A stretch of DNA of 64,000 nucleotides, from the NCBI GenBank assembly GCA_963650805.1, contig CAVJMG010000004.1, forward strand, positions 44,155 to 108,154. Reading direction: 5' to 3'. Source of the stretch: an uncultured Bacteroidales bacterium (GTDB taxonomy: Bacteria > Bacillota_I > Bacilli_A > RFN20 > CAG-826). Positions 18,338 through 43,726 of the stretch are shown here, piece by piece (within the stretch, counting starts at the first letter, position 1; each line of letters begins with the position of its first letter). The notes beneath the pieces are model-generated. The model made no database searches. It was not told the DNA's origin and was given only the letters and a program-made list of their open reading frames with translations. Made by a program: the position numbers and the translations under genes.

Positions 18338-21300
18338 TCAGTTATTAGCTTTGAAGGCGTATGAGCCGACGCTGGTGATTTCCTGGTCGTTGATGGTGAT
18401 GACGTAATCGCTGTCTTCGGGAAGCGAGATGACTTCGACGCTGAATTCGACGGGGCAATGGATGGTGACTACGTAGGTCTTGTTAAGCTCATCGTAGACA
18501 TACTCGACCGATGCGGAAGAATCTGAAACCGTCATTTTGAATTCGCTGTAGGTGGATTCGACGATGATGGGCGTTGGCCCTTCCCAATCTTCCGAAGCGG
18601 TTTTAGACCCCGTTCCTTCCGCTTTGATGGAAACGTCCCCATCCGAAGTGAAGGTCACGAGGCCGTCGCTTAAAGTTGCGTCTCCGCTTTCTTTGGACCA
18701 AGCCACGTCGTCCGAGGGGAAATAGAGCTGAAGCTCATCTCCTTCTTTTGCTCCGGTTATCGTCCAAGTGCAGGAATAGGCCATGCTTAAGGTCAAATTG
18801 GTCAAGGAGAAGGTCTGAACGGTTTTTCTTTCCATCGTGACGATGGTCGGGGAATCATAAACCCCCTCGATTGCTTTCCCATCTTCCCCTTTGACCTCGG
18901 TATAGGCGTCTTTGTACACAACTTGGAGGTCTTCCGAGCTGCTGGAAGTTACTGTCGAGGAAGTTCCCGAAGTCGAAATCGCGAGTTCGAGCTCTTTGCT
19001 TCTAGGGGCTAGAATCGCGATTGAAGCGGAAGCCCCTCCCTTGACCTCTGCAGTTTTGGACAAATCAGCGATGAAATCAATCCCTTTGGGATAATTCTCG
19101 GTGTAGGATGAAGAAACAATCTTCTCGTCGATTGTTACGGAGTCGTAATTTGCTGCACCTGTTCCAATGTCTAGGTAGAGCAAATAGGACCCTTGTTTGC
19201 CGGGAACCGAGCCCAAGGCATATTCCCCGGGATTTACGGGGATTTCAAAATAATAGAGACAATAAGTTGTGATTTTCGCATCTGTTGAAATCCAGGAAAC
19301 GTCGAAAATCATGTGATTCGAATCACTTCCGGACGGCACGCTTCCATCGTAAGAATAGAGATAGGGATTCTCTTTCTTATCATCGCCTAAATTCGCGTAT
19401 ATCTTGCTGATCGATTTAATTTCGGTGATGTTCTGGTTTTCGTCTCTGACGATTTCTTGGAGGCTGAAGAAAGAGTTGTTAGTTCCGTAGGAGCTGTTAA
19501 CGTAGTAGGTGGCGCCAAAGAAGGTGACATAGCCCGATGTGGCGAGATTAAAGCCGATTGAATCCTCGGGGACCGGATAGTTGTAATAAACGGACCCTTT
19601 TTGAGTTGGCTTTTCGCTTGTTTCCTTGTTCAAATATTTTTTAAGGTCTGCTTCATACCGTTTTTCCGCCGCTTCGTCATAAACCACGGCTTTTCCGATT
19701 TTGGTTAGATGGTCCGTTGATATTGCGGCGTTCATGAAATGAAGCCCGTATAACGGGGTCGAAGATTTAACGCTCGTGTTGCTGTAACTTCCAAACATCG
19801 TGTATTGAAGATTTTTCCTCGCTGAGTCGTAGCGCGAGAAGATTGAAGAATCTACGGGTTTGGCGGTCCAACCGGAGATGGTGGTGCTGCTCGCGGTGGA
19901 ATTGTTGTATTGGTCCTTAATTTTGGTCCATCCGTTATCGGAATAAGTCCCGTCGTTCGCCTTGGTGGTTGAACGTGTGAGAACTTGCAATTTTGAGCTG
20001 CTGTAACTACTCCAACTCGATCCCCCGAAAGAGGTATGCAGTTGGCTTATATTGTAATATTCGGCTACACGGATGTCGCCCGCGTAGTCGCTTCCGTTGA
20101 CATAATTTGCACCCCCAACCAAATATCCCGTATTCATGTCTGAGACGCCCGTTATGTTGGCCTTCGTTTTGGGGTCATCATAACTGTAGGCTAACGGGAA
20201 ATAGGTCGGATTTACTGTTGCGGTCGCCTTTTCACTTGAGGTAGAAACGGAGGCGAGGCCGGTATCTCCGGTTTTTTCAAACGTTAAATTGGAAGTATAG
20301 TCACCGCCATCGACTTTGCTGACGATGAACTGATCGCGCTGATTGGGGAGGTTTTGGTAGGTTCCGTTTTTCGTTTTGTAACTGACTTGGAATTCGCCAT
20401 TGGAATAGACTAAATAAGAAGTACAACCATCGCCGTCAAAATTTTCACGGAGCATGTATCCCGTCCCTGTTCCGTCGCTTGATGCGTTATCCATGTAAAA
20501 ACGCTTTGAGGTGGAATTGCCATGGCCTCCGTCATACTGTGTCACCCGAGGCAACTGCGTCCAATTTGTGCTGGTTATTCCCAAATAAATAGAAGACGAA
20601 TCGACTGGGTAATATGCGTTGTTAGTTGAATTATATCCCCAAGCATAACTTGAGTAAGTCGCTTTCGCTAATGCCGTCGGAGCTGTTTCTGCGGTTCCTG
20701 AATAGCCCACGTACATATTCGCGGTTACGTCTTTGATGGTAAGGCAAGATGACGTTGCTGCCGCTACCAGTTGCCAAGAGGAGTCATAATCGAGGTAATA
20801 GTTAAGACTGGTGCTATAAGGGATATAAAGATTCCCTTTATCGGAATCATAAGTCCATGTCGCCATTCCTGAGGTTGTGGTAAGCAATAGATTAAAAGAT
20901 GTGCCGTAGGCAAGATAATAAATGGTTCCATTGATGCTGGTGGAAACTTGGCCGCTCGCACCCGCCTCCGGGACGAACCACGAAACTGCGTCGCTCTCGG
21001 ATGCCGTATAGGTTACTGAATTAGATGAACCCACGGTGAGATAAACGCCGTTTTTGCTTATCTTGGACGTATAAGCGTATTGGTTTTTGGTCACGGTTTT
21101 TGAATAATCGGAACTTGCTCCGGTGTATGAGCCGTAAATATATACATAGCTATCGTTGCTTAGGCTTTGATAAGGCAAGCCGTATGATGCAATTACATTG
21201 CCATCCCCGTCGGTTCTTTCACCGTTTCTATAAGAGTAATCGCCCCTAGTTAGTCGCGTACTACCATAAACTTGGTTGTACGGCTCGCTTTTTACCCCTT

Positions 21301-22309
21301 CCGGAGAAACGTCGACTGACTCCGAGGTGACGTATGTGACGTCTTTCGAAATAGTGTTGCTTTTCAACTCACTCTTCAAATCGGTGTACATCTGCTTCAT
21401 GTTCACCGATCCGCCCCAATTGGTGGAGCCGTGCTCCGTGTTGGGGTTATCGATTTGTGGCATGGAGATGGTTTGGTCGCTAACGTCGAGCTTAGAGCGA
21501 TAATCCTCTGTGGCGTAGCCCACCAAAGAGTATTCGGAGATGTGTTTAACCCCGACAACGTCGGTGATGGTAGTGGCGTTCTCCTTCGTGAGAATAGAAG
21601 CGGATTTGATACCGACGCCTTTGATTTCTCCGTTGACGTATCCCGCGGCCAAACCGATGAGGGTTGAAGAGCTTGAAGACACGACGTCGAGGCCATCGAA
21701 ACCCAAGTTGAGGATTTGATTGGCGGAGGTGTCGTAGGTGTAGTTATTAACCGTGCCGCTGTCGTTGAGACATCCGACGACGCCGAAAAACCCGACGATT
21801 TCGGATTGCTTTAGGATTCCCGAAGAATATTCGGCACCCTTAGGGGGCTCAGCCCCCTTGAGGCTTTCTTCGTTATTCGTAATCTTTAGATTCGATATGG
21901 TTTTGCCCGCCCCGTCGAAATTCCCGACGAAGGGGTATTGCTTTGTGCCGGCTGGAGGGAGGGTGACTCCAGTCATGTCCAAGTCCGAGGTAAGCTTGAA
22001 ATAAGTCTGCTTAATCGCGGTCTTATCCTCGTTTGGGGTGTTGAAATAGCCAAGGTCCTGCAGCCAATTGAAGTAATAAAGCTGCTTCGGGTTGTCAATT
22101 TCAAAGGGCTTTTCCTTGCTCCCGTCCCCCCCATTGAAATAAGAGCCGTGGGCCGCTCCGGAGAGGCCTTCGAGCTTGGCGGTTGTTCTGGCTTTGGCAA
22201 ACCAAGCGAAGGAAGGCAGCGCCAAAGAAGCCGAAAGCACAATAAAAGAAATGCCCGAGAGCAGGGCGGTCTTCCTCTTTTTGTCTTTTAAAATCTCTCT
22301 GAGTTTCAT
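18338..22309 (-). CDS. Very large (1323 aa) secreted/surface protein, Ser/Thr/Tyr/Asn-rich, likely a beta-helix adhesin-like protein.
   Basis: Signal anchor ALLSGISFIVLSASLALPSFA. N-terminal GSYFNGGDGSKEKPFEI and GNFDGAGKTISNL resemble right-handed beta-helix caps. No catalytic motifs recognised. Confidence 0.6.
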   Translation of the reverse strand: MKLREILKDKKRKTALLSGISFIVLSASLALPSFAWFAKARTTAKLEGLSGAAHGSYFNGGDGSKEKPFEIDNPKQLYYFNWLQDLGYFNTPNEDKTAIKQTYFKLTSDLDMTGVTLPPAGTKQYPFVGNFDGAGKTISNLKITNNEESLKGAEPPKGAEYSSGILKQSEIVGFFGVVGCLNDSGTVNNYTYDTSANQILNLGFDGLDVVSSSSSTLIGLAAGYVNGEIKGVGIKSASILTKENATTITDVVGVKHISEYSLVGYATEDYRSKLDVSDQTISMPQIDNPNTEHGSTNWGGSVNMKQMYTDLKSELKSNTISKDVTYVTSESVDVSPEGVKSEPYNQVYGSTRLTRGDYSYRNGERTDGDGNVIASYGLPYQSLSNDSYVYIYGSYTGASSDYSKTVTKNQYAYTSKISKNGVYLTVGSSNSVTYTASESDAVSWFVPEAGASGQVSTSINGTIYYLAYGTSFNLLLTTTSGMATWTYDSDKGNLYIPYSTSLNYYLDYDSSWQLVAAATSSCLTIKDVTANMYVGYSGTAETAPTALAKATYSSYAWGYNSTNNAYYPVDSSSIYLGITSTNWTQLPRVTQYDGGHGNSTSKRFYMDNASSDGTGTGYMLRENFDGDGCTSYLVYSNGEFQVSYKTKNGTYQNLPNQRDQFIVSKVDGGDYTSNLTFEKTGDTGLASVSTSSEKATATVNPTYFPLAYSYDDPKTKANITGVSDMNTGYLVGGANYVNGSDYAGDIRVAEYYNISQLHTSFGGSSWSSYSSSKLQVLTRSTTKANDGTYSDNGWTKIKDQYNNSTASSTTISGWTAKPVDSSIFSRYDSARKNLQYTMFGSYSNTSVKSSTPLYGLHFMNAAISTDHLTKIGKAVVYDEAAEKRYEADLKKYLNKETSEKPTQKGSVYYNYPVPEDSIGFNLATSGYVTFFGATYYVNSSYGTNNSFFSLQEIVRDENQNITEIKSISKIYANLGDDKKENPYLYSYDGSVPSGSDSNHMIFDVSWISTDAKITTYCLYYFEIPVNPGEYALGSVPGKQGSYLLYLDIGTGAANYDSVTIDEKIVSSSYTENYPKGIDFIADLSKTAEVKGGASASIAILAPRSKELELAISTSGTSSTVTSSSSEDLQVVYKDAYTEVKGEDGKAIEGVYDSPTIVTMERKTVQTFSLTNLTLSMAYSCTWTITGAKEGDELQLYFPSDDVAWSKESGDATLSDGLVTFTSDGDVSIKAEGTGSKTASEDWEGPTPIIVESTYSEFKMTVSDSSASVEYVYDELNKTYVVTIHCPVEFSVEVISLPEDSDYVITINDQEITSVGSYAFKANN

Positions 22310-25600: not shown

Positions 25601-25675
25601 AGCTTCATCTCTGCCTTCCTCCCCGTCATGAAAATCGCGAACAAAAAGCCCATCGACGCGATTCACAACAAGTAA
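22643..25675 (+). CDS. Fused ABC ATPase plus FtsX/MacB-type permease (1010 aa).
   Basis: Walker A GKSGSGKST, signature LSGGQKQRVAIARA and Walker B IIFGDEPTGALD in the N-terminal domain. TM plus a ~450-aa extracytoplasmic domain. C-terminal IGILRAVGAKRIDVFKIF plus three TM helices. Good promoter upstream: TTGACG N17 TATAAT, then AAAGGAG. Confidence 0.8.
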   Translation: MLEVRNLKRVYKVKGGNSVYALNDVSLKFPETGLIFILGKSGSGKSTLLNVMGGLDNVDDGEIIINGKSSKTFSKVEMDSYRNTYLGFIFQEYNILSDFTVRENIALALQLQHKKATDEVIDKILEEVDLVGFGKRKPNELSGGQKQRVAIARALVKEPKIIFGDEPTGALDSNTGKQVFETLKRLSETRLVVIVSHDRDFAEHFGDRVIELRDGKVISDITKTAVVSEKTDDGLALIGDNIIRLDKNRPLKAEDLPIINQTIAKSEKEVYIVADSHVNSALCEAAKIDKDGNREEFVDTDPSKIEAGDDTFKPIKSRFSLGRAFRMGGKSLRVKPFRLAMTILLSTVAFSLFGASLTLSFFNAKSALISTIDRNGMTMLPFTVNDKSNSGLTDERAKAIEEETGVKVYCADSIESPIEVPSSSKQDLFHARYYKGRMAIDEDAVKDLGYAVVAGSLPSNENECMISLYAYYSYKDLGMGYSSSSADYIAPEKIEYSTVIGKTLSYYDRSSDYRSVVLTISGILDTKLLEKLASYRDKVDQINNTTDDGKALYYLSAGYQSSIHTSIFVKESETGKESDATASYPLKVSLGQDQDTGINFGYYPTHKDDFFFFDSNKSELQKGEAVCSVSGANMIYLHNADASSLSEGSLGYALVEIQNQQSPFRETYIQDNYKKIYEEYKTDSFFAKYDEATLSDEEGLKMAVNDFLFNYATSSDAYKGFSASWVAKEKEILKKVTDVSSIAPISGSLPTKSKGEQDSDIYEAWTFSLAGIDLTDTANGNSLRLSLSKAEFNEISAKLAANGYSSSSSTSSRIGYASWKGNASTLSKFLDSYLSKKNAYTNSGYDWSYLPDGFWYMAVSDSRIVLVETTATMIMVLTQVFLYIGIAMAAFSMLLFYNFISVSINNKKREIGILRAVGAKRIDVFKIFYSEAFIIAMVNFLLSTITVFVISYFVNQDLAKNEMFGFNLMSPDIRVVAALFGGAILASFISAFLPVMKIANKKPIDAIHNK

Positions 25676-25866
25676 GTTTGTCTCTAGGCCCTTGCGCATA
25701 AAAGCGGGGGCTTTTTCTTATGGCTTTAGGTCGCTTGCTTTTTTACAAAGCGCTCCTTGAAAGACGCGGGTTTAATAGTGTCATTATTCATTGCGTCAAA
25801 AAACTCTTTTATTTTTAGGGCTAAATAAAACTTAAATGCCGAAGATATCGAAAGTCTTTGCAAAAA

Positions 25867-25950
25867 AACTGCTCACTGAAAAGACAAAATAATGCTCACT
25901 GAAAAGTCGAAATAATGCTCATTGAAATGGCAAAATGTTGCTCATTTATA
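25867..25950 (+). promoter_or_regulatory. Four direct repeats of about 23 bp (AATAATGCTCACTGAAAAGNCNA type) ending at the TATAAT -10 of the downstream ATPase gene.
   Basis: TGCTCACTGAAAAG at about 25870 and 25893. TGCTCATTGAAATG at about 25916. TGCTCATTT at about 25939. Period 23 bp. Confidence 0.4.
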
Positions 25951-25978
25951 ATGGCTATTCATTTTTATTTTAGTTAAA

Positions 25979-27289
25979 ATGAGTTTGAGGAAACTGAAAA
26001 TGGGCTTATGGAAAAACGGCACTCCCTACAAGAAAAGGGTAATCGACCAAACGATAGAGGAATATTTAAGCGTCGCTGGGGCCGTATGCGTTGAGGGACC
26101 GAAGTGGTGCGGCAAAACTTTCACGTCCATTTTCCATTCAAAAAGTCGTTTTATGGTTGGGGATCCCGAGAGGGGCTTCTCCAATAGAGAACTCGCCAAA
26201 TTGGATCCGAATTTCGTGCTGCAGGGCGATGCCCCGAGGACGATTGATGAATGGCAAGAAGTGCCCTCCCTTTGGGATGCAGTTAGATTTGAGGTGGACA
26301 AGAGAGGCCAAAAGGGTCAATTCATCCTCACCGGTTCTTCGACACCCATGAAGAAAGGCGTTCTCCATAGCGGCGCTGGCAGAATCGTTCGGCTCAGAAT
26401 GAATACGATGTCCTTGTACGAAAGCGGAGATTCCACGGGGCAAGTTTCTCTCAAAGAACTCTGCGATAACCGCTTATCAAACCAAATGATTGGGGAGAAG
26501 TCTATTTTGGATTTGGCGACTTTCATCGTTCGTGGCGGTTGGCCTCAAAATATCGATGTCCCTTCAGCAAAATGCCACTTGATGCCAAAGGCCTATATTG
26601 AGACGCTTATTCACGAGGATATTCAGAAATTAGATGATTCAGTGGAGTATGATGAGCGCAAGTTTGAACTGCTCCTTAAATCTTTGGCGAGGAACGAATC
26701 AACGACTGCTTACGATGCGACGTTGCTTAACGACGTCATTCAAAACGACAGCGAGTCCATAGGCAGGAACACCATCGTTAAGTATTTGGACGTTATGAAA
26801 CGTTTATTCATATTGAATAATCAAGAGCCATACGCCCCTTCTCTTCGTTCGTCTTTGAGGGTAAAGCAAAATGAGAAAAGGCATTTCTCCGATCCGGCTA
26901 TGGCTTGCGCGCTATTGAACATTACCCCAAGCAAATTGTTGGGGGATATGCATACCTTCGGATTTTTGTTTGAGGCTCTTGTTGAGCGCGATTTGGCCGT
27001 TTACGCACAAGCCTTCGGCGGAAAGCTGTTCCATTATCAAGATTACAAAGACAATGAAATCGACGCTGTCATCGAGCTTGAAGATGGCCGTTGGTGCGGC
27101 ATAGAAATAAAATTAGGCTCAAATCAAATCGAAGAGGCCGCGGCTAATTTGAAAAGAATCAACGCCTCTTTGATAGCAAGCGGAAATGAAGGAGCTCAAT
27201 CCTTAATTGTCATCGTAGGCTTGGGGAACGCCGCTTACAAAAGAGAAGACGGCGTCCTCGTCGTTCCAATCTGCGGTTTAAAGGATTGA
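25979..27289 (+). CDS. AAA+ ATPase with a C-terminal DUF4143-like domain (AAA_14 + DUF4143 architecture).
   Basis: Walker A GPKWCGKT. Walker B FILTGSS. Clear paralog of 42046-43338 (ILFDEWQDAP, TGS, RMNPMSLFE blocks). Confidence 0.75.
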   Translation: MSLRKLKMGLWKNGTPYKKRVIDQTIEEYLSVAGAVCVEGPKWCGKTFTSIFHSKSRFMVGDPERGFSNRELAKLDPNFVLQGDAPRTIDEWQEVPSLWDAVRFEVDKRGQKGQFILTGSSTPMKKGVLHSGAGRIVRLRMNTMSLYESGDSTGQVSLKELCDNRLSNQMIGEKSILDLATFIVRGGWPQNIDVPSAKCHLMPKAYIETLIHEDIQKLDDSVEYDERKFELLLKSLARNESTTAYDATLLNDVIQNDSESIGRNTIVKYLDVMKRLFILNNQEPYAPSLRSSLRVKQNEKRHFSDPAMACALLNITPSKLLGDMHTFGFLFEALVERDLAVYAQAFGGKLFHYQDYKDNEIDAVIELEDGRWCGIEIKLGSNQIEEAAANLKRINASLIASGNEGAQSLIVIVGLGNAAYKREDGVLVVPICGLKD

Positions 27290-27418
27290 ACTCTTTGGGT
27301 TCGAAACGCCCTCATCGCGTTGACTCCCTTTTGGATTTTGCATCGATTTATAGAATTGATTGTTTGCAAATTCGTGGGAACAAATTCTCCGCAAAATCAG
27401 TCTTATATAAAAGCTTGT

Positions 27419-27755
27419 CTAGAAAACTACCAAACTGTGTCTCAATAAATACGATGGTTTCGCATTTTCCCCGTCCAAACGGCCTCTGAAAGTAGCGGAT
27501 ATCGCACCAAACGCCTCGTTTTCGGTCATTCCTTGTCCTCGCGCTGAACGGGGAAGATGCAGACGACCCAAGCTCAAACGCGATCCCGTTCCGGTCGCTA
27601 AGCTTTTCTTTAAAACCCTTTCACGCCAATTGGGCAGCCATCCGGCGGATGTTTTGGCAAACGTTTCAAACCAGCAGACTGCCCAATTGGCCAATACTTC
27701 CCAATAAAGGTTGCATCAAGGAAGCATTAACGGACACAGTTTGGTAGTTTCCTAG
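27419..27755. repeat. MITE-like element of about 337 bp bounded by 23-bp terminal inverted repeats, with nested internal palindromes.
   Basis: Left CTAGAAAACTACCAAACTGTGTC (27419-27441). Right GACACAGTTTGGTAGTTTCCTAG (27733-27755), 22/23 complementary. Internal 13-bp inverted repeat GCCAATTGGGCAG / CTGCCCAATTGGC. Flanks AAAAGCTTG / AAAAGTTTG may be a target-site duplication. Confidence 0.4.
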
Positions 27756-27890
27756 AAAAGTTTGAACGCTTTTAGAACATCCTAAAAAAGACAATTTCGT
27801 GGAAACGCCGAGAGTTGAAGATGCTTTTGGCTGTTTTGGTGTAGAAAGAAGACGCAGAGGGCGGGTTTAGCAAAGCGATAAGTGGCTCAA

Positions 27891-28919
27891 TTAATAAATC
27901 CTTCTTGAATGGTGCGTGGTTTCGACTTTTGTTTCGTGGTGGTGGCAATGCACGCATTCGCAATCGTAGGTTCTTACGGTCTCGCTTTCCTTGGTTTCGT
28001 ATTCCCCGATGTAATCCTCGTAAATGTCTTCGCTCCCTTTGGCTTCCCCTATGACGTTCCCGCGATCATCGGAGATGGTGTAGGTCGTTTCTCTGGTGCC
28101 GACTTTTCGCGAGCGGTCTTCGAAGCCGATGCTTGTGCCAAGATCGTTATGCTTTTCGTCGATGAGCGCTTTCACGCATCTTCCGCCGCAACGCGGGCAT
28201 CTTTCGGCGTCAATGGAGGCAAAATCAAAGGCGTTGAGGAAGGCGACGATGCCGAAGATTATGCAGCAGTGGATATAGAAATTCGTAGAGATGCCGAGCT
28301 TTCCCAAATAGAAGTAAGACACCGTAAGCCCTGCGCCTAGCAACGCTAGGAAGCCTAATTCGAAATAGAAATTGCTTCTTAAGGGGCTGGACATATTGAA
28401 CAAATGATTGACGAAGATTCCGCCGAGAATCGAGTACATATAGAAAAGGACGTAAAGCATCCAAACGTCGCTGACGTTGGTCAATTCGTTTAGATAATAT
28501 CCTCCGACGTAGAAAACCAGTGTGAAATAAGCCAATATAGCAACCCACTTTACAAACATCAAAGGCGAAGGGGCTTTGTAGCTTTTTTGAGTGAGGCGCT
28601 TCTCTTGGATGGGTTTTCGCTTCTTGGAAGGGAGAAGGATGAGCCTTGATAATCCGGCGATGAGATAGAGGAGAACGAAATAGGCAACAACGCCTCCTAA
28701 AAGGAAGACGCCGGGAATGCGGAAAATAGCGTAGAGAACATTATCCTGAGTTTGGTAGATGAATAGAGAAATCTGCTGGTAAAAGGGATAAGAATAGAAT
28801 TTCTTTTCTCCGCTTAAAAGGAAGTAGACGATGGCGCTTAAAATGGTCAGTAACAGCGATAGCCCTCCCAAAGAGGCCAAAAGAAGTATTGGCGTTTTGC
28901 AAAGTTGCTTCTTTTTCAT
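27891..28919 (-). CDS. Polytopic membrane protein with a C-terminal Cys-rich zinc-ribbon-like tail.
   Basis: About 7 TM helices. C-terminal CPRCGGRC ... CECVHCHHH. Confidence 0.5.
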   Translation of the reverse strand: MKKKQLCKTPILLLASLGGLSLLLTILSAIVYFLLSGEKKFYSYPFYQQISLFIYQTQDNVLYAIFRIPGVFLLGGVVAYFVLLYLIAGLSRLILLPSKKRKPIQEKRLTQKSYKAPSPLMFVKWVAILAYFTLVFYVGGYYLNELTNVSDVWMLYVLFYMYSILGGIFVNHLFNMSSPLRSNFYFELGFLALLGAGLTVSYFYLGKLGISTNFYIHCCIIFGIVAFLNAFDFASIDAERCPRCGGRCVKALIDEKHNDLGTSIGFEDRSRKVGTRETTYTISDDRGNVIGEAKGSEDIYEDYIGEYETKESETVRTYDCECVHCHHHETKVETTHHSRRIY

Positions 28920-28928
28920 AAGGATTCC

Positions 28929-30059
28929 TCACTCATAAACGGCGGGCTTGCCACCGACGTAATGCCAATAGCGCCCTTTTTCTTTCGGCGTTTCCTCGGA
29001 ATAGAGATATACGTGGCTTTCGAGCATTCCATCGAATTTCCCATCGTTTGTCTCTCCTTTGTAATAGATGTTTGGCACAGAGACGGAATCGCTGGAGCTG
29101 TAGACGAAAGCGTAGATCGACATGAAGCCTTCAATAGAAGTGGGGACGACGATACTCTTGAGGCTTTTGCATTCGGCGAAAGCGGATTTCCCGATGCTTT
29201 TCAGGCCGTCTGGCAAGGCGATCTCCTTCAAATTGAAGCATCTTGCAAAAGCGAAAGAGCCGATGCTTTCAAGGGAGCTCGGCAACGCGACTTCCTCTAA
29301 TTTCGGGCAATAGTAGAAACAACTGTCGGGCAAGACTTTTAGTTTGCTGGTTTGGAAAGAGATTTTAGCAAGGCTACTTTCAGAAAAGGCGCTGTAGCCT
29401 AGGCTTTCTAAGTTCTCTCCGATTGAAATGCTTTCGAAGAGGGATTCTTGGAAACCTTTGCTTGCTACGGTCACCAAATTCGGGAATTCCTGGTCTTCAA
29501 TGAAATGCACCCCGGTTTTGTAAAAGCCGTTTGATTTGACGGTTTTGATGGTTTTCGGGAGCGTGGCGTTAGTTTTGGGCGCGCTTTTCCCTTGCTCGAA
29601 TTCTTTGTAAAAAGCTTTTTCCTCAATGCAGGTAACGTCTTCCCCGGCATATTTAGAAGGGATTTCGTAAAGCTTATCGATTTTTCTTTCTTGATAAATG
29701 AGATGACCGCTCAGGTCATAACCCGTTTCTTTGGCGTTATAGCCCGTGATGGCCACCCCCTCTTCTTTCTTCTCGAAAGAGAGCATGTCGTAGCTCATCT
29801 TATAGCCGCATCTGCAGACATAGTCGTAATAACGGCATACGTAGTCCCTTGAGGAGGTTTTCATTTCTTCATAAGCGAAAACCATTTTGTCGAACACGTG
29901 CCCGTGGAAATTGGATTTTTCGCCGTTAATGAGGTGATAATGGCCTTCCTTGTCGTAAACGTCTCCGAAGCTTAAATCAAACAGGCTGAGGTTGCCTTCG
30001 CAGGAGGTTAGGCAAAGCAGTGGAATTAAAGAAAGGACGTATTTGGGGAACTTTTTCAT
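28929..30059 (-). CDS. BspA/TpLRR-type leucine-rich-repeat surface lipoprotein.
   Basis: Lipobox MKKFPKYVLSLIPLLCLTSCEG. Repeats of the ~23-aa unit (...SIGSFAFARCFNLKEIALPDGLKSIGKSAFAECKSLKSI...). Start set at the MKKF ATG (30059). The track start at 30125 reads through the poly-C tract. Confidence 0.7.
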   Translation of the reverse strand: MKKFPKYVLSLIPLLCLTSCEGNLSLFDLSFGDVYDKEGHYHLINGEKSNFHGHVFDKMVFAYEEMKTSSRDYVCRYYDYVCRCGYKMSYDMLSFEKKEEGVAITGYNAKETGYDLSGHLIYQERKIDKLYEIPSKYAGEDVTCIEEKAFYKEFEQGKSAPKTNATLPKTIKTVKSNGFYKTGVHFIEDQEFPNLVTVASKGFQESLFESISIGENLESLGYSAFSESSLAKISFQTSKLKVLPDSCFYYCPKLEEVALPSSLESIGSFAFARCFNLKEIALPDGLKSIGKSAFAECKSLKSIVVPTSIEGFMSIYAFVYSSSDSVSVPNIYYKGETNDGKFDGMLESHVYLYSEETPKEKGRYWHYVGGKPAVYE

Positions 30060-30064
30060 GAAAT

Positions 30065-30073
30065 GGGGGGGGG
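30065..30073 (-). repeat. Homopolymeric C9 tract (G9 on the plus strand) 5 nt upstream of the LRR lipoprotein start codon.
   Basis: Minus strand reads ATTAGAG-CCCCCCCCC-ATTTC-ATG. It sits where the RBS would be. Confidence 0.6.
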
Positions 30074-30124
30074 CTCTAATTTTCTTGAATATAATATACA
30101 ACAAAAAGCGCCAACGAACCGCCA

Positions 30125-30166
30125 ACTCAAAATAAGAAAAAGCCCGAGGCGAAGGGCGCCTCGGGT
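30125..30166 (-). terminator. Intrinsic terminator downstream of apt.
   Basis: CCCGAGGCG-aaggg-CGCCTCGGG. On the minus strand the stem is followed by CTTTTTCTTATTTT. Confidence 0.6.
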
Positions 30167-30189
30167 GAGTTGGTGCAAGAAGAATCGGA

Positions 30190-30711
30190 TCAATGCGAAT
30201 CGGAGAGATTCAGCAAGCTTTCGCAAGGCAATCCAACGGCTTTTTCGCCATGGAGCTCCTCGAGGTTGATGACGGTAAGGCAAGCAACGGCTTCTCCTCC
30301 GGCCAAGGCGATGAGCTTTTTCAAAGCCGCGAAGGTTCCTCCGGTGGCCATGAGGTCATCGATCATCAGCACCCTGTCTCCCTTCTTGAAGGAGGAAGCG
30401 GGAATCTCCATCGTCGCGGTTCCATATTCGAGCTGATAGGAGACTTTCATGGTGACGCCGGGGAGTTTTCCGGCTTTTCTAGCCATGACGAATCCAATGC
30501 CCATTTTATAAGCTAAAGCCGAGCCAAAGATGAAACCCCTTGATTCGGGGCCGATGATGACGTCGGGATGGTATTTCTCGGCGATTTTGGCGAGCTGGTC
30601 GATGGCTTCTTTGAAAGCCGCGGGGTCCCTTAGCAACGGGGAAACGTCTTTAAAGGAGATGCCCTTCTTGGGGAAATCGGGAGTGACGCCGATGTAGTCA
30701 TTTAAATTCAT
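30190..30711 (-). CDS. apt: Adenine phosphoribosyltransferase.
   Basis: Full-length match to the Apt pattern: VLMIDDLMATGGT PRPP-binding motif, 173 aa. Confidence 0.9.
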   Translation of the reverse strand: MNLNDYIGVTPDFPKKGISFKDVSPLLRDPAAFKEAIDQLAKIAEKYHPDVIIGPESRGFIFGSALAYKMGIGFVMARKAGKLPGVTMKVSYQLEYGTATMEIPASSFKKGDRVLMIDDLMATGGTFAALKKLIALAGGEAVACLTVINLEELHGEKAVGLPCESLLNLSDSH

Positions 30712-30745
30712 GATTCAATTTGCCTTTCGTGACGATTCATTATAA

Positions 30746-30790
30746 ACGGGGACGACCGAAGTGGACGCCCCCGTTTTGGTGTTTTTGCGG
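30746..30790 (-). promoter_or_regulatory. Hairpin (ACGGGG...CCCCGT) plus TATAAT between the permease and apt. Candidate partial terminator with an internal apt promoter.
   Basis: The minus strand reads AAAACGGGGGCGTCCACTTCGGTCGTCCCCGTTTATAATGAATCG. Confidence 0.3.
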
Positions 30791-30799
30791 ATTTGGGAA

Positions 30800-32353
30800 T
30801 CAGGCGATGCCGGTTGCGTATTTGACGATGTAGATGACCACGAAGGCGGCAGCGCAGCAAGCGACGGCGGTGTCTTCTTTCTTGAAGCGGTGAGCGCAGA
30901 GGGTCATCAAGGTGTAGGCGATGAAGCCCCAAGCGATGCCATCGCTGATGGAATAGGAGATGCACATGACGATGACGGTGAGGAAGCCGCTTCCGACGGC
31001 CACCCAATCGTGCCATTCAAGCTTTTCGAGGTTCCTGAACATGCAAACGCCAACGTAAACCAAGGCAAGCCCGGTGACGGCGCTATTGGAGAAAGCGCTG
31101 AGGGCGGGATAGATGACAAGGCTCAATCCGAAGAGGAGGCCGGTGATGACGGCGGCGAGCCCGGTGCGGGCACCCGCGGCGACGCCGGTGGTGGATTCGA
31201 CGAAGGAAGTGACGGTGGTGGTGCCGCAGATGGAGCCGAAGACGGTGCCGGCGGCATCAACGATCATCGCGGGGCGATCGTCGACGGTGATGTGACCTTC
31301 GTCATCGACCATGCCGGCGCCGGCTTCAACGCCGACGAGGGTTCCGGCGGTGTCGAAGAAGTCAACGAAGAGAAGAGAGAAGGTGAAGGCGTAGGACATC
31401 GGTTGGGCGAAGACGTCGAACCCGAAGAAGGGGGCGCCGAAGAGTTTGCCGAAATTGCCGATGGAAGCGATGGAATACTCCGGATCATAGAAGCCGGAGA
31501 ACCCTTCGACTTTGCAAGAACCGAGGGTTCCGCAGAGGATGGCCATGACGACGATGGCGATGATGACGGCGAACTTGTTGACCCAGAAGCCAAGCTTGGT
31601 CCTTTGGGGCAAGGCGGAAAGCGCTAAGACAACGACGACGCCGAGCAAGCCGAGAAGGACGGGGAGGCTCTTGAAGTTGCCGAGGCCGACCAAGGTGGCG
31701 CTGTTGTCGGCGATGATGCCCATGTTCTGGAAGCCGATGAAGCAGATGAAGAAGCCAATACCCGCGGAAATAGCGAATTTCAGCGACTTCGGAATACGTT
31801 TGACGATCCATCCTCTAAGAGGAGTAATGGAGATGATCAAGAAGAGAATGCCGTCGACCATGACTAAGCACATGGACTGGGCAAAGTTCCAACCCATGCC
31901 GAGCATGACGTTGAAGGCGACGAGGGAGTTAAGGCCAAGTCCAGAGGCTAAGCCAACCGGCAATTTGCCGTAGAATCCCATGAAGATGGTGGTGACGCAG
32001 GCGGAGATGGCGGTGGCGGCGAAGACGGCGGCGCGGACATCGCTCACGCTGGCCCAGTTGTTGCCATAAATGAGGATTTCAATGGTTTCGCCGACCTGCC
32101 TGACGTTGCCTTTGCTTAGAGCGAGAGCGCCGCCAGCCCAGTTGCTAGAAAGCATGTTGGCGTTGAGCGGAAGGATGTAGAACATCGCCAAGAAGATGAC
32201 GAGCCCGCCGATGAGCTCTTTGAGGATTGAGGATCCCCTGGTGGAAATTCCGAAGTAGTTGTCCATCCACTTCCCGAATTTCGTTTTTGGGCTGTGTCCG
32301 CCCGGTTGGTTGCTCTCTGGCGAGGTTTCAACAGCTGAGACTGCTTCTGCCAT
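30800..32353 (-). CDS. NCS2/AzgA-like purine permease (guanine/hypoxanthine/adenine permease, PbuG-like).
   Basis: KELIGGLVIFLAMFYILPLNANML AzgA-type N-terminal block. About 13 TM helices. Sits downstream of a guanine-type riboswitch and upstream of apt. Confidence 0.75.
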   Translation of the reverse strand: MAEAVSAVETSPESNQPGGHSPKTKFGKWMDNYFGISTRGSSILKELIGGLVIFLAMFYILPLNANMLSSNWAGGALALSKGNVRQVGETIEILIYGNNWASVSDVRAAVFAATAISACVTTIFMGFYGKLPVGLASGLGLNSLVAFNVMLGMGWNFAQSMCLVMVDGILFLIISITPLRGWIVKRIPKSLKFAISAGIGFFICFIGFQNMGIIADNSATLVGLGNFKSLPVLLGLLGVVVVLALSALPQRTKLGFWVNKFAVIIAIVVMAILCGTLGSCKVEGFSGFYDPEYSIASIGNFGKLFGAPFFGFDVFAQPMSYAFTFSLLFVDFFDTAGTLVGVEAGAGMVDDEGHITVDDRPAMIVDAAGTVFGSICGTTTVTSFVESTTGVAAGARTGLAAVITGLLFGLSLVIYPALSAFSNSAVTGLALVYVGVCMFRNLEKLEWHDWVAVGSGFLTVIVMCISYSISDGIAWGFIAYTLMTLCAHRFKKEDTAVACCAAAFVVIYIVKYATGIA

Positions 32354-32427
32354 AGTCTTTTCCTCCTTAATTAATGATTAAGACTTGCCGTTAGGAGGAT
32401 GACTGCCGGAGAGGGGTGATCTTGGAA

Positions 32428-32565
32428 CAAAGGAGAAAAACGCAAAAACGAGAGCTGCATTTTGCGACTTGGGCTTCTTTGTTTCCTTTCTTGGAATTCG
32501 TAGTGCCTGACTTTAAGGATCAGGCGTAGAAACTGTCGGACCACATCTCCAACATATACGACCTA
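32428..32565 (-). promoter_or_regulatory. Purine riboswitch, guanine/hypoxanthine type (C discriminator), with a downstream intrinsic terminator as the expression platform.
   Basis: Minus-strand RNA: UCGUA-UAUG-UUGGA(GAUGUGG)UCCGA-CAGUUUCUAC-GCCUGA(UCCUUAAAG)UCAGGC-ACUACGA. P1, P2 and P3 all pair. The J2/3 GUUUCUAC core is present. Terminator GCAAAAUG-N7-CGUUUUUGC plus UUUUU at about 32428-32470. RBS GGAGGA follows. Confidence 0.75.
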
Positions 32566-32701
32566 TCGACGTTAATTAAATATATATAGAAAAAAGGCCC
32601 TATCCACATGAAAGCGGTTTATCGAAGAAATTCCCCTTTTCTTGTTTTTGTTTGCCGGCACCCTTGATAGAATAATGGGCTAGAAAGAAGGTTTAAACAC
32701 C

Positions 32702-33349
32702 ATGGATTTGTCCGCTTATCCGAACGTCGTTTTGCTTGAGCACCCCTTGCTCAAACACAAAATCTCCATTCTCCGCAACAAGTTGACCCCCACCAGCGAA
32801 TTCCGCCCCGTCGTCAAGGAAATCGCGATGATGGAAGCCTATGAGGCTCTCCGCAGCATTCCGACCGTCGACGTTGAGATCGAAACCCCCATCGAGAAGA
32901 CCGTTCAGCCGATGGTCGTTGGACACAATCTCTGCTTCGTCCCCATCCTCCGCGCCGGCATGGGCATGGTCGATGGCTTCACCGAGCTCATCCCAACCGC
33001 CCACGTTGGTCACATCGGGCTTTACCGCGATGAGCAGACCCATGAGCCCCATGAGTATTACTGCAAGCTCCCCAAAGGCCTTGAAGATATGGATGTTTAC
33101 CTCCTTGATCCGATGCTCGCCACCGGAGGCAGCGCCATCGACGCCATCAAGATGCTCCGTAAACACGGTGCTAAGCGCATCCACTTCGTTTGCATCATCG
33201 CCGCTCCCGAGGGTGTCGAAGCTTTTTGCAAAGCCAACCCCGACGTTCCTCTATTCATCGGCTCGCTTGACCGCCGGCTCAATGAAAACGCCTATATCTG
33301 CCCTGGCTTAGGCGATGCCGGCGACCGTATCTTCGGAACTCAAAACTGA
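32702..33349 (+). CDS. upp: Uracil phosphoribosyltransferase.
   Basis: VYLLDPMLATGGS PRPP motif and overall Upp pattern, 215 aa. Confidence 0.9.
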   Translation: MDLSAYPNVVLLEHPLLKHKISILRNKLTPTSEFRPVVKEIAMMEAYEALRSIPTVDVEIETPIEKTVQPMVVGHNLCFVPILRAGMGMVDGFTELIPTAHVGHIGLYRDEQTHEPHEYYCKLPKGLEDMDVYLLDPMLATGGSAIDAIKMLRKHGAKRIHFVCIIAAPEGVEAFCKANPDVPLFIGSLDRRLNENAYICPGLGDAGDRIFGTQN

Positions 33350-33363
33350 TTTCGTCGAAAATA

Positions 33364-33405
33364 AAAGCCAACTCCCTTCAAGGTTTTCCTTGGCGAAGTT
33401 GGCTT
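33364..33405. terminator. Intrinsic terminator after upp (bidirectional geometry).
   Basis: AAAGCCAACT-N22-AGTTGGCTTT followed by TTGTTTT, preceded by an A-run. Confidence 0.65.
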
Positions 33406-33414
33406 TTTGTTTTG

Positions 33415-34785
33415 CTAAATCCTAAACAAATCTTCTAAGGCAAACGTGTGCACGTTATTCGGCTTCGATTCAATTAAATCCGCGGTGAAACCGCTTTTGG
33501 AAAATAGGTAGTATTCTCGCCTCAACTTGCTGGGGAAGACGCTGGCGCTTTCAATGAGATGGTTAAGCATGCTGGAGGAAAATTTAACTTTTCTATATTT
33601 GCATTCCATCACGATCAGCGTTTTTCCATTGTCGGACAACCCGTCGATCTCAACGGGCCTGTTCAAAATCGATTTTTCGACTTTGTAAGGTTTAAACGGT
33701 TTTTAAACGCCGCCTAATGCGCCTTCGGCGTTTAATTCGTCCATAAACATTCGGGAAACGTCTTCAAAGCCGAAACTAATGAAATCTTTAATTTCTTCTT
33801 TTTCCGATTCGAAGACGGCTTCGCCGTTGATTTTTACCGTTTCCTGATTGTCAAAGACGAAAATGTACCAAAACCTAAGCATTGGGTCCCCGATTTCGTA
33901 ATAAACGGTCTTTTGATTGCCTGCGTACGTTTCCCTTCGATCAAGGAGTTCTTGAGATAGCAAAAACGAGATGTATTTGCTTACTTTCGCTGGCTCTTCA
34001 TGGATATAGTCGGCTATCTCCTTAATGGTTCTTTTTCTTTTGGACACCGCGTGCAAAATCGAGTTATAGATATCCTACGTCCTCGTGGAATTGGACAGCA
34101 GCTGATCAGGTAATGTAAAGAAAGCTCCGTAGGGGTTGAACAACAGTTCCTTCACATTCTCTTCAAAGGATTTTCCAAAATCCATCGCCGACAAATAATA
34201 GGGGAAAGAAGACGTCAAAGATAAGAAACGGACTTTGTTCTCCTCGTCGACGGAGGTCAAATATTCAAGGCATTCCTTGTATCCGAGCTTCTTGATCTCC
34301 ATTTCGAAAGTTCTGCGTTTACACAAAGGCGAGTTGTGATTTTGAATTTCGTCTTTTAGCATCGAAACGTCGCTTCCGGATATTAGGAAAAATATATTGG
34401 CCGGAGCTTTATCGATGATGCTTTGAAGAACGGAGGGGAAACTGGGGTCCTGCTTGACAATATAGGGATACTCATCGATGGCGAAAACGAACCTTTGACC
34501 TTATGCTTTTTTTAGCAAAGCGCTTATGGCGGATTCATACGAATCAAAAACGAAAGTATCGGGCAATCCAAGCAAAGGGTTGATTTGGTGGGACAAGGAC
34601 CGCAAATTGCCATATTTGCTATCTTCTTTGGCTTGATAAAACAAACCGTTCTTCCCTTTGAGAAATTCGTTTATCAAATAGGATTTTCCTATTCTTCTTC
34701 GCCCATAAATAACTCCGAATTCCTTCTTTGCCCCGGAATATCTATTGTTTAGTTCCCTAAGCTCCGCTTTTCTGCCAACAAGCAT
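33415..34785 (-). pseudogene. Archaeal-type AAA+ ATPase gene (paralog of 8929-10287) interrupted by three in-frame stop codons (TAA, TAG, TAA) with no frameshift.
   Basis: Track ORFs 34501-34785, 34075-34362, 33703-34056 and 33415-33666 are all in one frame. Walker A GRRRIGKS, IDEYPYI, YYEIGDPMLRFWYIFVF all align colinearly to the intact paralog. Stops at about 34501-34503, 34072-34074 and 33700-33702. Confidence 0.6.
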
Positions 34786-43338: not shown

Positions 43339-43398
43339 ATTTAAGAACCTCAAATCTATTGCTGTCTTCTTTTTCGATGCAGTTAAATAAAATTGCAA

Positions 43399-43662: not shown

Positions 43663-43726
43663 TGAAAAACTGGCCGGAACGATGATATTATTTATTAATA
43701 TAAAATCCTGTTTTCGGAGGGCAAAT

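What the first reader, a model, noticed from the sequence alone, without database searches (positions are those of the whole stretch)
30057..30080. Poly-C tract in place of the RBS of a BspA-like LRR surface lipoprotein gene: candidate phase-variation switch
C9 sits 5 nt upstream of the ATG of a surface lipoprotein. Homopolymeric tracts at this position classically vary by slipped-strand mispairing and modulate translation initiation or promoter spacing of surface antigens.
Basis: partly seen in the sequence, partly recalled or inferred. Interest (0 to 1): 0.5.

Follow-up and report, generated by a model that had tools for sequence, protein, structure and literature searches.

The report
Length-variable poly-C tract replacing an RBS
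A run of nine C's sits where the ribosome-binding site of a surface lipoprotein gene should be, and its length differs between strains (9, 8, 7, 5 or 3) while the flanking DNA stays almost unchanged, so it is a real mutational hot spot and a plausible but unproven expression dial.

Summary
On the minus strand a C9 run (30065-30073) lies 5 nt upstream of the ATG (30059-30057) of a 376-aa LRR_5 ("BspA-type") lipoprotein. It is the only G/C run of 8 or more in the 64 kb.

Other assemblies of the same locus carry C8 (three samples), C7, C5 and C3TC.
- Against one assembly with 0 mismatches over 8.8 kb, the tract is the only difference.
- It is also the only indel against four further loci from three other assemblies.
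- All other homopolymers in that stretch are invariant.

The tract lies downstream of a promoter-like module conserved in six species-level clusters, so it is very probably transcribed as part of a leader of about 26 nt. It has displaced the Shine-Dalgarno sequence that orthologues still have (-2.1 against about -10 kcal/mol anti-SD pairing). The gene is intact in all five alleles and under purifying selection (dN/dS 0.12-0.25).

It is not in an ORF or a promoter spacer, and folding predicts no length-dependent structure. A binary ON/OFF switch is therefore not supported. A graded effect on translation and a neutral hot spot remain about equally likely.

Verdict: a genuine hypermutable tract and a candidate contingency locus of a known kind. 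Its function is unproven.

The parts
30065..30073 (-). Poly-C tract (C9 in this window; G9 on the + strand)
   Evidence: Seen. It is the only G/C run of 8 or more in the window. Alleles C8, C7, C5 and C3TC occur in other assemblies. It is the only indel in 6.5-8.8 kb of aligned flank.
30060..30064 (-). 5-nt spacer ATTTC between the tract and the start codon
   Evidence: Conserved in the C9, C8, C7 and C5 alleles; ATTTT in L009.
30057..30059 (-). ATG start codon of the LRR lipoprotein gene
   Evidence: The signal peptide starts here. Independent gene calls on other contigs use the same start.
30074..30079 (-). TTAGAG, a degenerate remnant of the ancestral Shine-Dalgarno sequence
   Evidence: Alignment A1 aligns it with TTAGGAGG (L023), TTGGGAGGG (L024) and CTAGGA (L009). 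Duplex energies are -2.1 here against -9.9 and -10.4 in the two orthologues.
30093..30098 (-). TATATT, the predicted -10 hexamer (inferred)
   Evidence: A TAnAnT hexamer lies 9-10 nt after the second TTGGCR repeat in all six species-level clusters. The generic sigma-70 scan found no canonical -35/-10 pair.
30109..30125 (-). Direct repeat TTGGCG-GTTCG-TTGGCG, a conserved upstream element and probable activator site that replaces a -35 (inferred)
   Evidence: It is the only exact TTGGCR-N5-TTGGCR in the window. The same repeat is present upstream of the orthologous operon in L009, L018, L019, L023 and L024, with a single copy in L010-L017.
30133..30165 (-). Intrinsic terminator of the upstream apt gene (stem 30165..30143 plus T-run). 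It separates the operon from apt.
   Evidence: 9-bp stem with 8 G-C pairs, followed by CTTTTTCTTA.
28929..30059 (-). LRR_5 (BspA-type) lipoprotein gene, 376 aa; lipobox LTSC at 30000-30011
   Evidence: Pfam PF13306 at E = 3e-29. There are 376 codons in all five alleles, with dN/dS 0.12-0.25.
27891..28919 (-). Co-oriented 342-aa polytopic membrane protein with a Cys/His-rich C-terminus. It starts 9 nt after the LRR stop codon and has its own GAGGAA SD. Probably the second gene of the operon.
   Evidence: The gene pair is conserved in all six clusters. It has no Pfam, NCBIfam or PADLOC family.

Best explanation
The C9 run is a slippage-prone homopolymer in the transcribed leader of a two-gene operon (LRR lipoprotein plus a 342-aa membrane protein). 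The host is an uncultured Bacilli-like Firmicute.

Within this species the run has grown out of, and erased, the ancestral Shine-Dalgarno region. It now fills positions -6 to -14 of the translation-initiation region.

Slipped-strand mispairing during replication changes its length far faster than the surrounding DNA mutates, so strains, and probably cells, differ in it.

Because it lies inside the ribosome footprint, and not in the ORF or a promoter spacer, the most likely consequence is graded. Each added or lost C changes the distance between the A-rich 5' part of the leader (AGAAAAUUAGAG, including the SD remnant) and the AUG, and changes the C-content of the site. That would tune SD-independent initiation of the lipoprotein up or down rather than turning it fully on or off.

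Shown: the tract, its position, loss of the SD, length polymorphism, an intact gene under selection.
Inferred: the transcription start upstream of the tract, slippage as the cause, any effect on translation.
For: Tract and gene:
- Position of the tract and identity of the gene.

Length alleles in assemblies of the same locus:
- C9 in the window.
- C8 in SRR13434624, SRR13434599 and GCA_963633445.1.
- C7 in SRR19415659.
- C5 in GCA_963603495.1.
- C3TC in SRR19415656.

Hot-spot behaviour:
- The window and the SRR13434624 contig show 0 mismatches over 8.8 kb and a single 1-nt gap, which is the tract.
- Four further loci (L004, L021, L006 and L005, from three other assemblies) show 17-71 SNPs, and the tract is their only indel.
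- The six A/T runs of 6-7 nt in the same stretch are invariant wherever they could be scored.

The tract is transcribed:
- The module of TTGGCR direct repeat, 9-10 nt, then TAnAnT is conserved in six species-level clusters.
- The distance from that module to the ATG varies (7, about 23, about 35 and about 165 nt), so the module behaves as the promoter and the tract as leader.

SD loss:
- Anti-SD pairing is -2.1 kcal/mol here against -9.9, -10.4 and -7.0 in orthologues.
- The most divergent strain of the same species is intermediate at -3.9 (alignment).

The gene is still needed:
- It has 376 codons in all alleles, with dN/dS 0.12-0.25.

Precedents for variable homopolymers in 5' UTRs that change translation or give graded control:
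- Mycobacterium tuberculosis espR (PMC11898584).
- Helicobacter pylori tlpB with the sRNA RepG (PMC8295292).
- Haemophilus influenzae hmw (PMC12721329).
Against: - No expression data exist for this locus.
- ViennaRNA predicts the tract to be unpaired (probability 0.89-0.96) for C3 to C12, and accessibility of the initiation region is almost unchanged (0.59-0.70), so there is no structural switch.
- No usable SD remains for the tract to space.
- About a quarter of the 33 genes scored in the window lack a clear SD, so ±1 nt may matter little.
- The tract is absent from the syntenic orthologue of the sister species and from four more distant clusters. It is therefore young, not a conserved regulatory device.
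- The C9/C8 difference between two otherwise identical assemblies could be an assembly or consensus ambiguity.
- Only about seven independent assemblies were available.
- The transcription start is predicted, not mapped, and the generic sigma-70 scan found no canonical promoter.
Confidence: 0.45

Rival explanations
1. Neutral mutational hot spot. After the SD decayed, the short leader was under no length or sequence constraint. A C-run arose there and now drifts in length by slippage. It has no meaningful effect on expression and no selection maintains it.
For: - The tract is species-specific and absent from all orthologous loci in other species.
- There is no length-dependent structure.
- No SD remains to be spaced.
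- About a quarter of the 33 genes scored here lack a clear SD (pairing weaker than about -3 kcal/mol) and are presumably translated anyway.
- Only one such tract occurs in 64 kb, so there is no sign of a 'phasome'.
Against: - The run is uninterrupted in four lineages that differ by dS of about 0.09-0.11 in the adjacent gene.
- Comparing the C7 allele AGAAA-C7 with the C8 allele AGAG-C8, which have the same total length, suggests it was lengthened by substitution as well as slippage.
- It sits inside the ribosome footprint of a predicted surface protein gene that is under purifying selection.
- None of these points is statistically decisive.
Confidence: 0.38
2. Classical binary ON/OFF phase-variation switch. 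One tract length permits expression and neighbouring lengths abolish it, through promoter-spacer geometry or SD-AUG spacing.
For: - A hypermutable G/C tract of 8-9 nt lies next to a surface lipoprotein gene, and its length is polymorphic between strains.
Against: - The tract is not in the ORF.
- It lies about 20 nt downstream of the conserved -10-like hexamer, so it is not a -35/-10 spacer.
- No -10 can be placed between the tract and the ATG.
- The SD is degenerate in all long-tract alleles.
- Lengths of 5, 7, 8 and 9 all coexist with an intact gene under purifying selection.
Confidence: 0.08
3. Target site for a trans-acting factor. The length-variable C-run is bound by a G-rich small RNA (the mirror image of H. 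pylori RepG with the tlpB G-repeat) or by a C-binding protein such as Rho, and tract length sets the strength of that regulation.
For: - The tract is predicted to be single-stranded and accessible in every allele.
- There is a precedent for sRNA pairing to a variable homopolymer in a leader (PMC8295292).
Against: - No partner is known.
- The only G-runs of 6 or more on any strand of the window are few, and they were not checked for being small-RNA genes.
- Rfam found only three riboswitches in the window.
- A 9-nt run is short for a Rho-utilisation site.
Confidence: 0.05
4. Sequencing or assembly artefact. The apparent length differences are homopolymer errors.
For: - The C9/C8 pair differs at nothing else in 8.8 kb and may come from the same sample processed by two assemblers.
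Against: - C8 recurs in three samples and two assembly pipelines.
- The C7 and C5 alleles sit in a different flanking context (AGAAA rather than AGAG) with linked SNPs.
- C3TC is an interrupted allele in a strain only 92% identical.
- A/T homopolymers in the same contigs are never discordant.
Confidence: 0.04

Closest known systems
Simple-sequence-repeat contingency loci with G/C homopolymers next to surface-protein genes (Neisseria opc/porA/fetA, Bordetella fim, Campylobacter poly-G genes, Treponema pallidum tpr poly-G). This list is from my own knowledge. For Bordetella homopolymeric tracts, PMC1891110 came up in the search; only its title and the start of its abstract were seen.
   Same: - A G/C run of 8-9 nt.
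- It sits immediately upstream of a predicted surface lipoprotein gene.
- Its length differs between strains while the flanks are stable.
   Different: - Those tracts act in the ORF (frameshift) or in or around the -35/-10 spacer. This one lies between the predicted TSS and the AUG.
- No ON/OFF phenotype is known here.
- The host is an uncultured Firmicute, a group for which such loci are, as far as I know, hardly described.
Mycobacterium tuberculosis espR 5'-UTR G7 homopolymer (PMC11898584)
   Same: A variable G/C homopolymer in a transcribed leader, where a 1-nt insertion changes protein level without changing mRNA level (a translational effect).
   Different: [quoted passage not shown]
- Here the leader is about 26 nt, is predicted to be unstructured, and the tract occupies the RBS position itself.
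Helicobacter pylori tlpB-hp0102 leader G-repeat targeted by the sRNA RepG (PMC8295292)
   Same: A length-variable homopolymer in the leader of a bicistronic operon for envelope-related functions, giving graded rather than binary control. Lengths vary between and within hosts.
   Different: That system requires a C/U-rich sRNA loop. No G-rich partner is known here, and the polarity is opposite (C-run rather than G-run).
Haemophilus influenzae hmw1A 5'-UTR heptanucleotide repeats (PMC12721329)
   Same: The SSR is transcribed as part of the 5' UTR of an adhesin gene, and expression scales with repeat number.
   Different: That is a heptamer array forming a long hairpin processed by RNase III. Here a mononucleotide run has no predicted pairing partner.
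Mycoplasma variable lipoprotein genes with homopolymeric tracts (for example the M. hyorhinis vlp poly-A promoter tracts). From my own knowledge, not checked here.
   Same: Lipoprotein genes of wall-less or reduced Bacilli-related bacteria whose expression is governed by a homopolymer just upstream.
   Different: - The vlp tract is poly-A in the promoter spacer, and the gene belongs to a multigene family.
- Here a single-copy LRR gene has poly-C in the leader.

Membership tests
SSR-mediated phase-variable (contingency) locus | Uninterrupted repeat tract long enough to be hypermutable (about 7-8 or more for G/C) | tested here: met
   C9 in the window, with C8 and C7 in other strains. It is the only G/C run of 8 or more in 64 kb.
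SSR-mediated phase-variable (contingency) locus | Tract length polymorphic between closely related strains while the flanks are conserved | tested here: met
   Five alleles were found. The tract is the sole difference in 8.8 kb against one assembly and the sole indel against four further loci. Control homopolymers are invariant.
SSR-mediated phase-variable (contingency) locus | Length heterogeneity within a single population or sample | not testable with these tools
   No raw reads are available. The window (C9) and the Logan assembly of SRR13434624 (C8) are otherwise identical. That is suggestive only.
SSR-mediated phase-variable (contingency) locus | Tract placed where ±1 unit changes expression (within the ORF, or between or adjacent to the -35 and -10) | tested here: not met
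   The tract is outside the ORF. It lies about 20 nt downstream of the conserved -10-like hexamer. It is in the leader and translation-initiation region, a rarer position whose effect cannot be predicted from sequence.
SSR-mediated phase-variable (contingency) locus | Reversible high-frequency ON/OFF or graded phenotype | not testable with these tools
   This needs reporters, immunoblots or single-colony analysis. The organism is known only from metagenomes.
BspA-type LRR (Pfam PF13306 LRR_5) surface lipoprotein | LRR_5 repeats above the Pfam gathering threshold | tested here: met
   101.9 bits against a cut-off of 27.7, E = 3e-29. The hit to NCBIfam HupY/LrrG is far below its cut-off (59.6 against 1250), so this is not that adhesin.
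BspA-type LRR (Pfam PF13306 LRR_5) surface lipoprotein | Lipoprotein signal peptide with a lipobox [LVI][ASTVI][GAS]C | tested here: met
   MKKFPKYVLSLIPLLC-LTSC-EGN. LTSC or LSAC followed by (E/D)GN is conserved in orthologues. This is pattern inspection only; no SignalP/LipoP tool was available.
5'-UTR homopolymer rheostat of the RepG/tlpB type | Tract lies in the transcribed leader | tested here: inconclusive
   Inferred from the conserved promoter-like module upstream. No TSS data exist, and the generic promoter scan was negative.
5'-UTR homopolymer rheostat of the RepG/tlpB type | Complementary trans-acting sRNA | not tested
   Only 64 kb of the genome was available. Rfam found no sRNA, and no obvious G-rich sRNA candidate was seen.
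Sigma-54-dependent promoter (considered for the upstream element) | TGGCAC-N5-TTGCW with GG-N10-GC spacing | tested here: inconclusive
   L018 and L019 carry a perfect TTGGCAC-ATTGA-TTGCT. The window has only TGGCGG-TTCGT-TGGCG, where GG-N10-GC is kept but the flanking consensus is poor. Clusters 2, 5 and 6 lack a canonical -12 element. A conserved TAnAnT hexamer 10 nt downstream fits better with a sigma-70 -10 plus a direct-repeat activator site.

The most novel reading that the evidence does not exclude
In an uncultured, host-associated Bacilli-like lineage, a hypermutable poly-C run has replaced the Shine-Dalgarno sequence of a conserved surface LRR-lipoprotein operon. It acts directly at the ribosome-binding site as a heritable, reversible translational rheostat. 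That would be a contingency locus working through SD-independent initiation rather than through frameshift or promoter spacing, and as far as I know the first described for this clade.
Probability: 0.25. Interest if true: 0.55.

Novelty: new member of a known kind. Interest (0 to 1): 0.38.

Why it matters
If tract length does tune expression, this would extend SSR-based bet-hedging of surface antigens to an uncultured group of gut or host-associated Firmicutes. It would also give an unusually clean case in which the repeat sits in the ribosome-binding site itself. That would be useful for asking how SD-independent initiation responds to leader length and composition.

In practice, it shows that such tracts in MAGs can be tested by comparing independent public assemblies of the same locus.

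If the tract is neutral, it is simply a documented indel hot spot, and a caution for gene callers: the C9 allele opens a spurious in-frame 398-aa ORF from an upstream TTG.

Tried and rejected
- **Public collections.** The genome-contig scan with the protein returned only a distant Clostridia MAG paralogue at 29% identity. The JGI metagenome scan with a flank-anchored DNA pattern found nothing, and neither did the scan with the partner protein. The lineage is absent from those collections.
- **Sample accessions.** A literature search for the run and assembly accessions returned only unrelated papers, so the environment of origin stays unknown.
- **Promoter-spacer model.** Rejected. No -10 can be placed between the tract and the ATG, and the generic sigma-70 scan finds nothing.
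- **Frameshift model.** Rejected. The tract is upstream of the signal-peptide ATG. The in-frame upstream TTG ORF (398 aa) exists only in the C9 allele, starts before the predicted TSS and has no SD.
- **Structural switch.** Rejected. Folding of C3 to C12 leaders, with and without the apt read-through sequence, shows the tract unpaired and no length-dependent change.
- **Variable gene lengths in cluster 2.** The sister species has 376-, 386-, 396- and 399-aa gene calls, which looked like a second variable tract. For the 376- and 396-aa calls that were checked, the cause is a 1-nt difference in the apt terminator loop, and there is no homopolymer.
- **Contig ends as evidence of heterogeneity.** Contig ends near the tract in SRR13434599 and SRR13434617 were considered as signs of within-sample variation. 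They do not coincide with the tract, so they were not used.
- **Defence-system reading of the operon.** PADLOC finds nothing for the LRR protein or its partner.
- **Pairing with the 16S tail.** Pairing of the UAGAAA/UAGAG remnant with a Bacillus-type 16S 3' tail gives only -3.4 kcal/mol. The organism's own 16S rRNA is not in the window, so this stays speculative.
Full report
**1. Observation**

The feature is on the minus strand. The + strand reads ...ctttttCAT gaaat GGGGGGGGG ctctaatttt. On the coding strand this is TTAGAG-C9-ATTTC-ATG, with C9 at 30065-30073 and the ATG at 30059-30057.

The ORF 28929..30059(-) encodes 376 aa. It begins MKKFPKYVLSLIPLLCLTSC, with a basic n-region, a hydrophobic core and the lipobox LTSC. 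It matches Pfam PF13306 LRR_5, the 'BspA type' leucine-rich repeat, at E = 3e-29.

The run is the only G/C homopolymer of 8 or more in the window; the next longest is 7. Simple composition models expect 0.2-0.4 such runs per 64 kb. The observed run-length distribution falls faster than those models and extrapolates to a few hundredths. The run is unusual but not decisive on that ground alone.

**2. Organism and neighbourhood**

The window carries THF, purine and c-di-GMP-I riboswitches. It also has many nucleotide-salvage genes: apt, upp, another PRTase, guaA, a CBS-less IMPDH and two xanthine/uracil permeases. Most genes have AAGGAG or GGAGG Shine-Dalgarno sequences.

The nearest named relatives of the IMPDH are 'Bacilli bacterium' MAGs at 74% identity. 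No close relative exists among GTDB species representatives or in JGI metagenomes. This is an uncultured Firmicute known only from MAGs and SRA assemblies.

The lipoprotein gene follows apt and is separated from it by a strong intrinsic terminator. Nine nucleotides after its stop codon comes a 342-aa polytopic membrane protein with a Cys/His-rich tail and its own SD. This gene pair is conserved in all orthologous loci examined.

**3. The key test: does tract length vary?**

Exact-protein look-ups retrieved independent assemblies of the same locus. The alleles are:

| Allele | Sequence before ATTTC-ATG | Source |
|---|---|---|
| C9 | TAGAG-C9 | window |
| C8 | TAGAG-C8 | Logan SRR13434624, Logan SRR13434599, GCA_963633445.1 |
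| C7 | TAGAAA-C7 | SRR19415659 |
| C5 | TAGAAA-C5 | GCA_963603495.1 |
| C3TC | TAGGAAACCCTC (followed by ATTTT-ATG) | SRR19415656, the most divergent strain (about 92% identity) |

BLAST of these loci against the window gave:
- The SRR13434624 contig matches 8.8 kb (24891-33711) with 0 mismatches and one 1-nt gap, which is the tract.
- Four further loci (L004, L021, L006 and L005, from three other assemblies) show 17-71 SNPs, and the tract is their only indel.

As a control, the six other homopolymers of 6 or more in that stretch (A/T runs of 6-7) have the same length in every assembly where both flanks could be matched.

The tract behaves as an indel hot spot.

The C9/C8 pair could be an assembler ambiguity, or genuine heterogeneity in one sample. 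The window protein is recorded in an NCBI contig of 122,570 nt and in Logan SRR13434624. Raw reads would be needed to decide. The C7, C5 and C3TC alleles have different flanks and linked SNPs, so they cannot be artefacts.

**4. Where the tract sits functionally**

Orthologous operons were recovered from five other species-level clusters, with 53-37% protein identity. All share an upstream module: the direct repeat TTGGCR-N5-TTGGCR(C), then 9-10 nt, then a TAnAnT hexamer.

| Locus | Module |
|---|---|
| window | TTGGCG GTTCG TTGGCG C TTTTTGTTG TATATT |
| L023 | TTGGCG TTTCG TTGGCG C TTCCTTCCT TACAAT |
| L024 | same repeat, with TAAAAT |
| L018, L019 | TTGGCA ... TTGGCA C ATTGATTGC TATACT / TAAACT |
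| L010-L017 | one repeat copy plus TATCAT |

The distance from this module to the ATG varies among species: about 7, 23, 35 and 165 nt. That is what one expects if the module is the promoter and the rest is leader.

The geometry is an 11-bp-periodic direct repeat ending 10 nt before a -10. It resembles sites for OmpR/PhoB-type activators that replace a -35. This is my inference; no regulator was identified.

L018 and L019 additionally contain a perfect sigma-54 consensus (TGGCAC-N5-TTGCT). The other clusters do not, so sigma-54 dependence of the window's operon is not supported.

On any of these readings the TSS is upstream of the tract, predicted near 30085. The tract then lies at roughly +12 to +20 of a leader of about 26 nt, which is -6 to -14 relative to the AUG and inside the ribosome footprint.

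**5. The SD has been erased**

L023 and L024 have TTAGGAGGAACGCC-ATG and TTGGGAGGGACGCC-ATG. In alignment A1 their SD aligns with the CTAGGA, TTAGAA and TTAGAG remnant of the window's species, and the C-run is an insertion between that remnant and the ATG.

Anti-SD duplex energies:

| Locus | kcal/mol |
|---|---|
| L023 | -9.9 |
| L024 | -10.4 |
| L018 | -7.0 |
| L009 (C3TC) | -3.9 |
| window C9 and the C8 alleles | -2.1 |
| C7 and C5 alleles | +0.2 |

The window gene ranks 30th of 33 window genes, whose median is about -6.3. 'Poly-C in place of the RBS' is therefore literally correct. The series C3TC, C5, C7, C8, C9 looks like a young tract that expanded by slippage and by substitution. Compare AGAAA-C7 with AGAG-C8, which have equal total length.

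However, about a quarter of the 33 genes scored in the window also lack a clear SD. This organism evidently translates SD-less mRNAs.

**6. Is the gene still in use?**

All five alleles have 376 codons. Pairwise dN/dS is 0.12-0.25, somewhat higher than for the flanking permease and apt (0-0.08). That is clear purifying selection. The operon is not a decaying pseudogene.

**7. Mechanism**

- A frameshift switch is excluded because the tract is upstream of the signal-peptide ATG.
- A promoter-spacer switch is excluded by position (sections 1 and 4).
- A riboswitch-like refolding is not supported. For C3 to C12 the tract is predicted to be 89-96% unpaired, and accessibility of the initiation region barely changes. 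Including apt read-through sequence does not alter this.

Two main possibilities remain.

(a) A graded effect on SD-independent initiation. Tract length sets the distance between the A-rich 5' leader and SD remnant on one side and the AUG on the other, and sets the C-content of the ribosome-binding site. A speculative version is pairing of UAGAAA/UAGAG with a Bacillus-type 16S 3' tail. That gives only -3.4 kcal/mol, and the organism's 16S rRNA is unknown.

(b) No effect at all, i.e. a neutral hot spot in an unconstrained leader.

A trans-acting partner, such as a G-rich sRNA mirroring RepG-tlpB, or Rho, is possible but has no evidence behind it.

I rate (a) at about 0.45, (b) at about 0.38, a classical binary switch at about 0.08, a trans-factor target at about 0.05 and an artefact at about 0.04.

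**8. Comparison with known systems**

The locus meets the structural and population criteria of an SSR contingency locus: tract length, polymorphism and an adjacent surface-protein gene. It fails the positional criterion of the classical types.

Its closest documented analogues are variable repeats in transcribed leaders:
- The M. tuberculosis espR G7 tract, where +1 G raises translation through leader refolding (PMC11898584).
- The H. pylori tlpB-hp0102 G-repeat, read out by the sRNA RepG as a gradual control (PMC8295292).
- The H. influenzae hmw heptamers, which form an RNase III-processed hairpin (PMC12721329).

This case differs from all three. The leader is very short, it is predicted to be unstructured, and the repeat occupies the RBS position itself.

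**9. Verdict**

Novelty: a new member of a known kind, namely a candidate contingency or rheostat locus in an uncultured Firmicute. Interest is moderate (0.38).

The decisive data are tract-length counts at the read level and a C3 to C12 reporter series.

Noticed in passing
window 30086-30125 (-); L018 2822-2858; L019 2835-2872; L023 1288-1322; L024 1905-1940; L010 about 3030-3055: A promoter-like module is conserved upstream of the LRR-lipoprotein/membrane-protein operon in six species-level clusters: the direct repeat TTGGCR-N5-TTGGCR(C), then 9-10 nt, then TAnAnT. The 11-bp periodicity and the position 10 nt before the -10 resemble OmpR/PhoB-type activator sites. L018 and L019 also contain a perfect sigma-54 consensus, TGGCAC-ATTGA-TTGCT. 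The regulator is unknown.
   Followed up: partly
window 22126-22132 (G7 on the minus strand), inside ORF 18338..22309(-): A G7 run (TTC AAT GGG GGG GAC) lies at codons 59-61, just after the signal peptide of a 1323-aa secreted protein with no Pfam or NCBIfam hit. It is the second-longest G/C run in the window. A ±1 slip would frameshift the protein, so it is a possible classical phase-variation site. Other strains were not checked.
   Followed up: no
window 22324-22399 (-): A c-di-GMP-I riboswitch (59.8 bits) lies directly upstream of that 1323-aa orphan secreted protein. This suggests c-di-GMP control of a giant surface or adhesin-like protein of unknown family.
   Followed up: no
L010-L017 (sister species), about 80 nt before the LRR gene ATG: The syntenic orthologue has no poly-C and no SD. 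A TATCAT hexamer lies 7 nt before the ATG (with TTGAGA 17 nt upstream of it), which looks like a leaderless mRNA. The 376- and 396-aa gene calls that were checked differ because of a 1-nt difference in the apt terminator loop, which opens an upstream in-frame start. No repeat is involved.
   Followed up: partly
window 25979-27289 (+), 42046-43410 (-), 8929-10299 (-), 45130-46170 (+): There are four AAA_14/DUF4143 or ATPase_2/DUF234 ATPase genes in 64 kb. The one next to the LRR operon hits the PADLOC candidate defence family PDC-S01 (E = 1.6e-58), and a copy is also adjacent to the operon in clusters 2, 4 and 6.
   Followed up: partly
window 43682-44860 (+): The IMP dehydrogenase homologue lacks the CBS (Bateman) domains: close homologues are 377 aa, against about 490 aa for more distant ones that carry PF00571. 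The listed ATG is probably about 15 codons too far upstream.
   Followed up: no
window 30050-30064 (TTTCATGAAA around the start codon): A 10-bp perfect palindrome, TTTCATGAAA, is centred on the start codon. It is not conserved in L009 or in other species, so it is probably chance.
   Followed up: partly
window 32481-32581 (-) and 52078-52169 (+): A purine riboswitch lies upstream of the xanthine/uracil permease-apt genes, and a THF riboswitch lies upstream of an ECF-transporter S component. Both arrangements are ordinary, but they help place the organism among the Firmicutes.
   Followed up: no
L018 2795-2802: An A8 run lies about 20 nt upstream of the conserved repeat/sigma-54-like element of the cluster-3 orthologue. 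It is another homopolymer near this operon's control region in a different species. Its variability was not examined.
   Followed up: no
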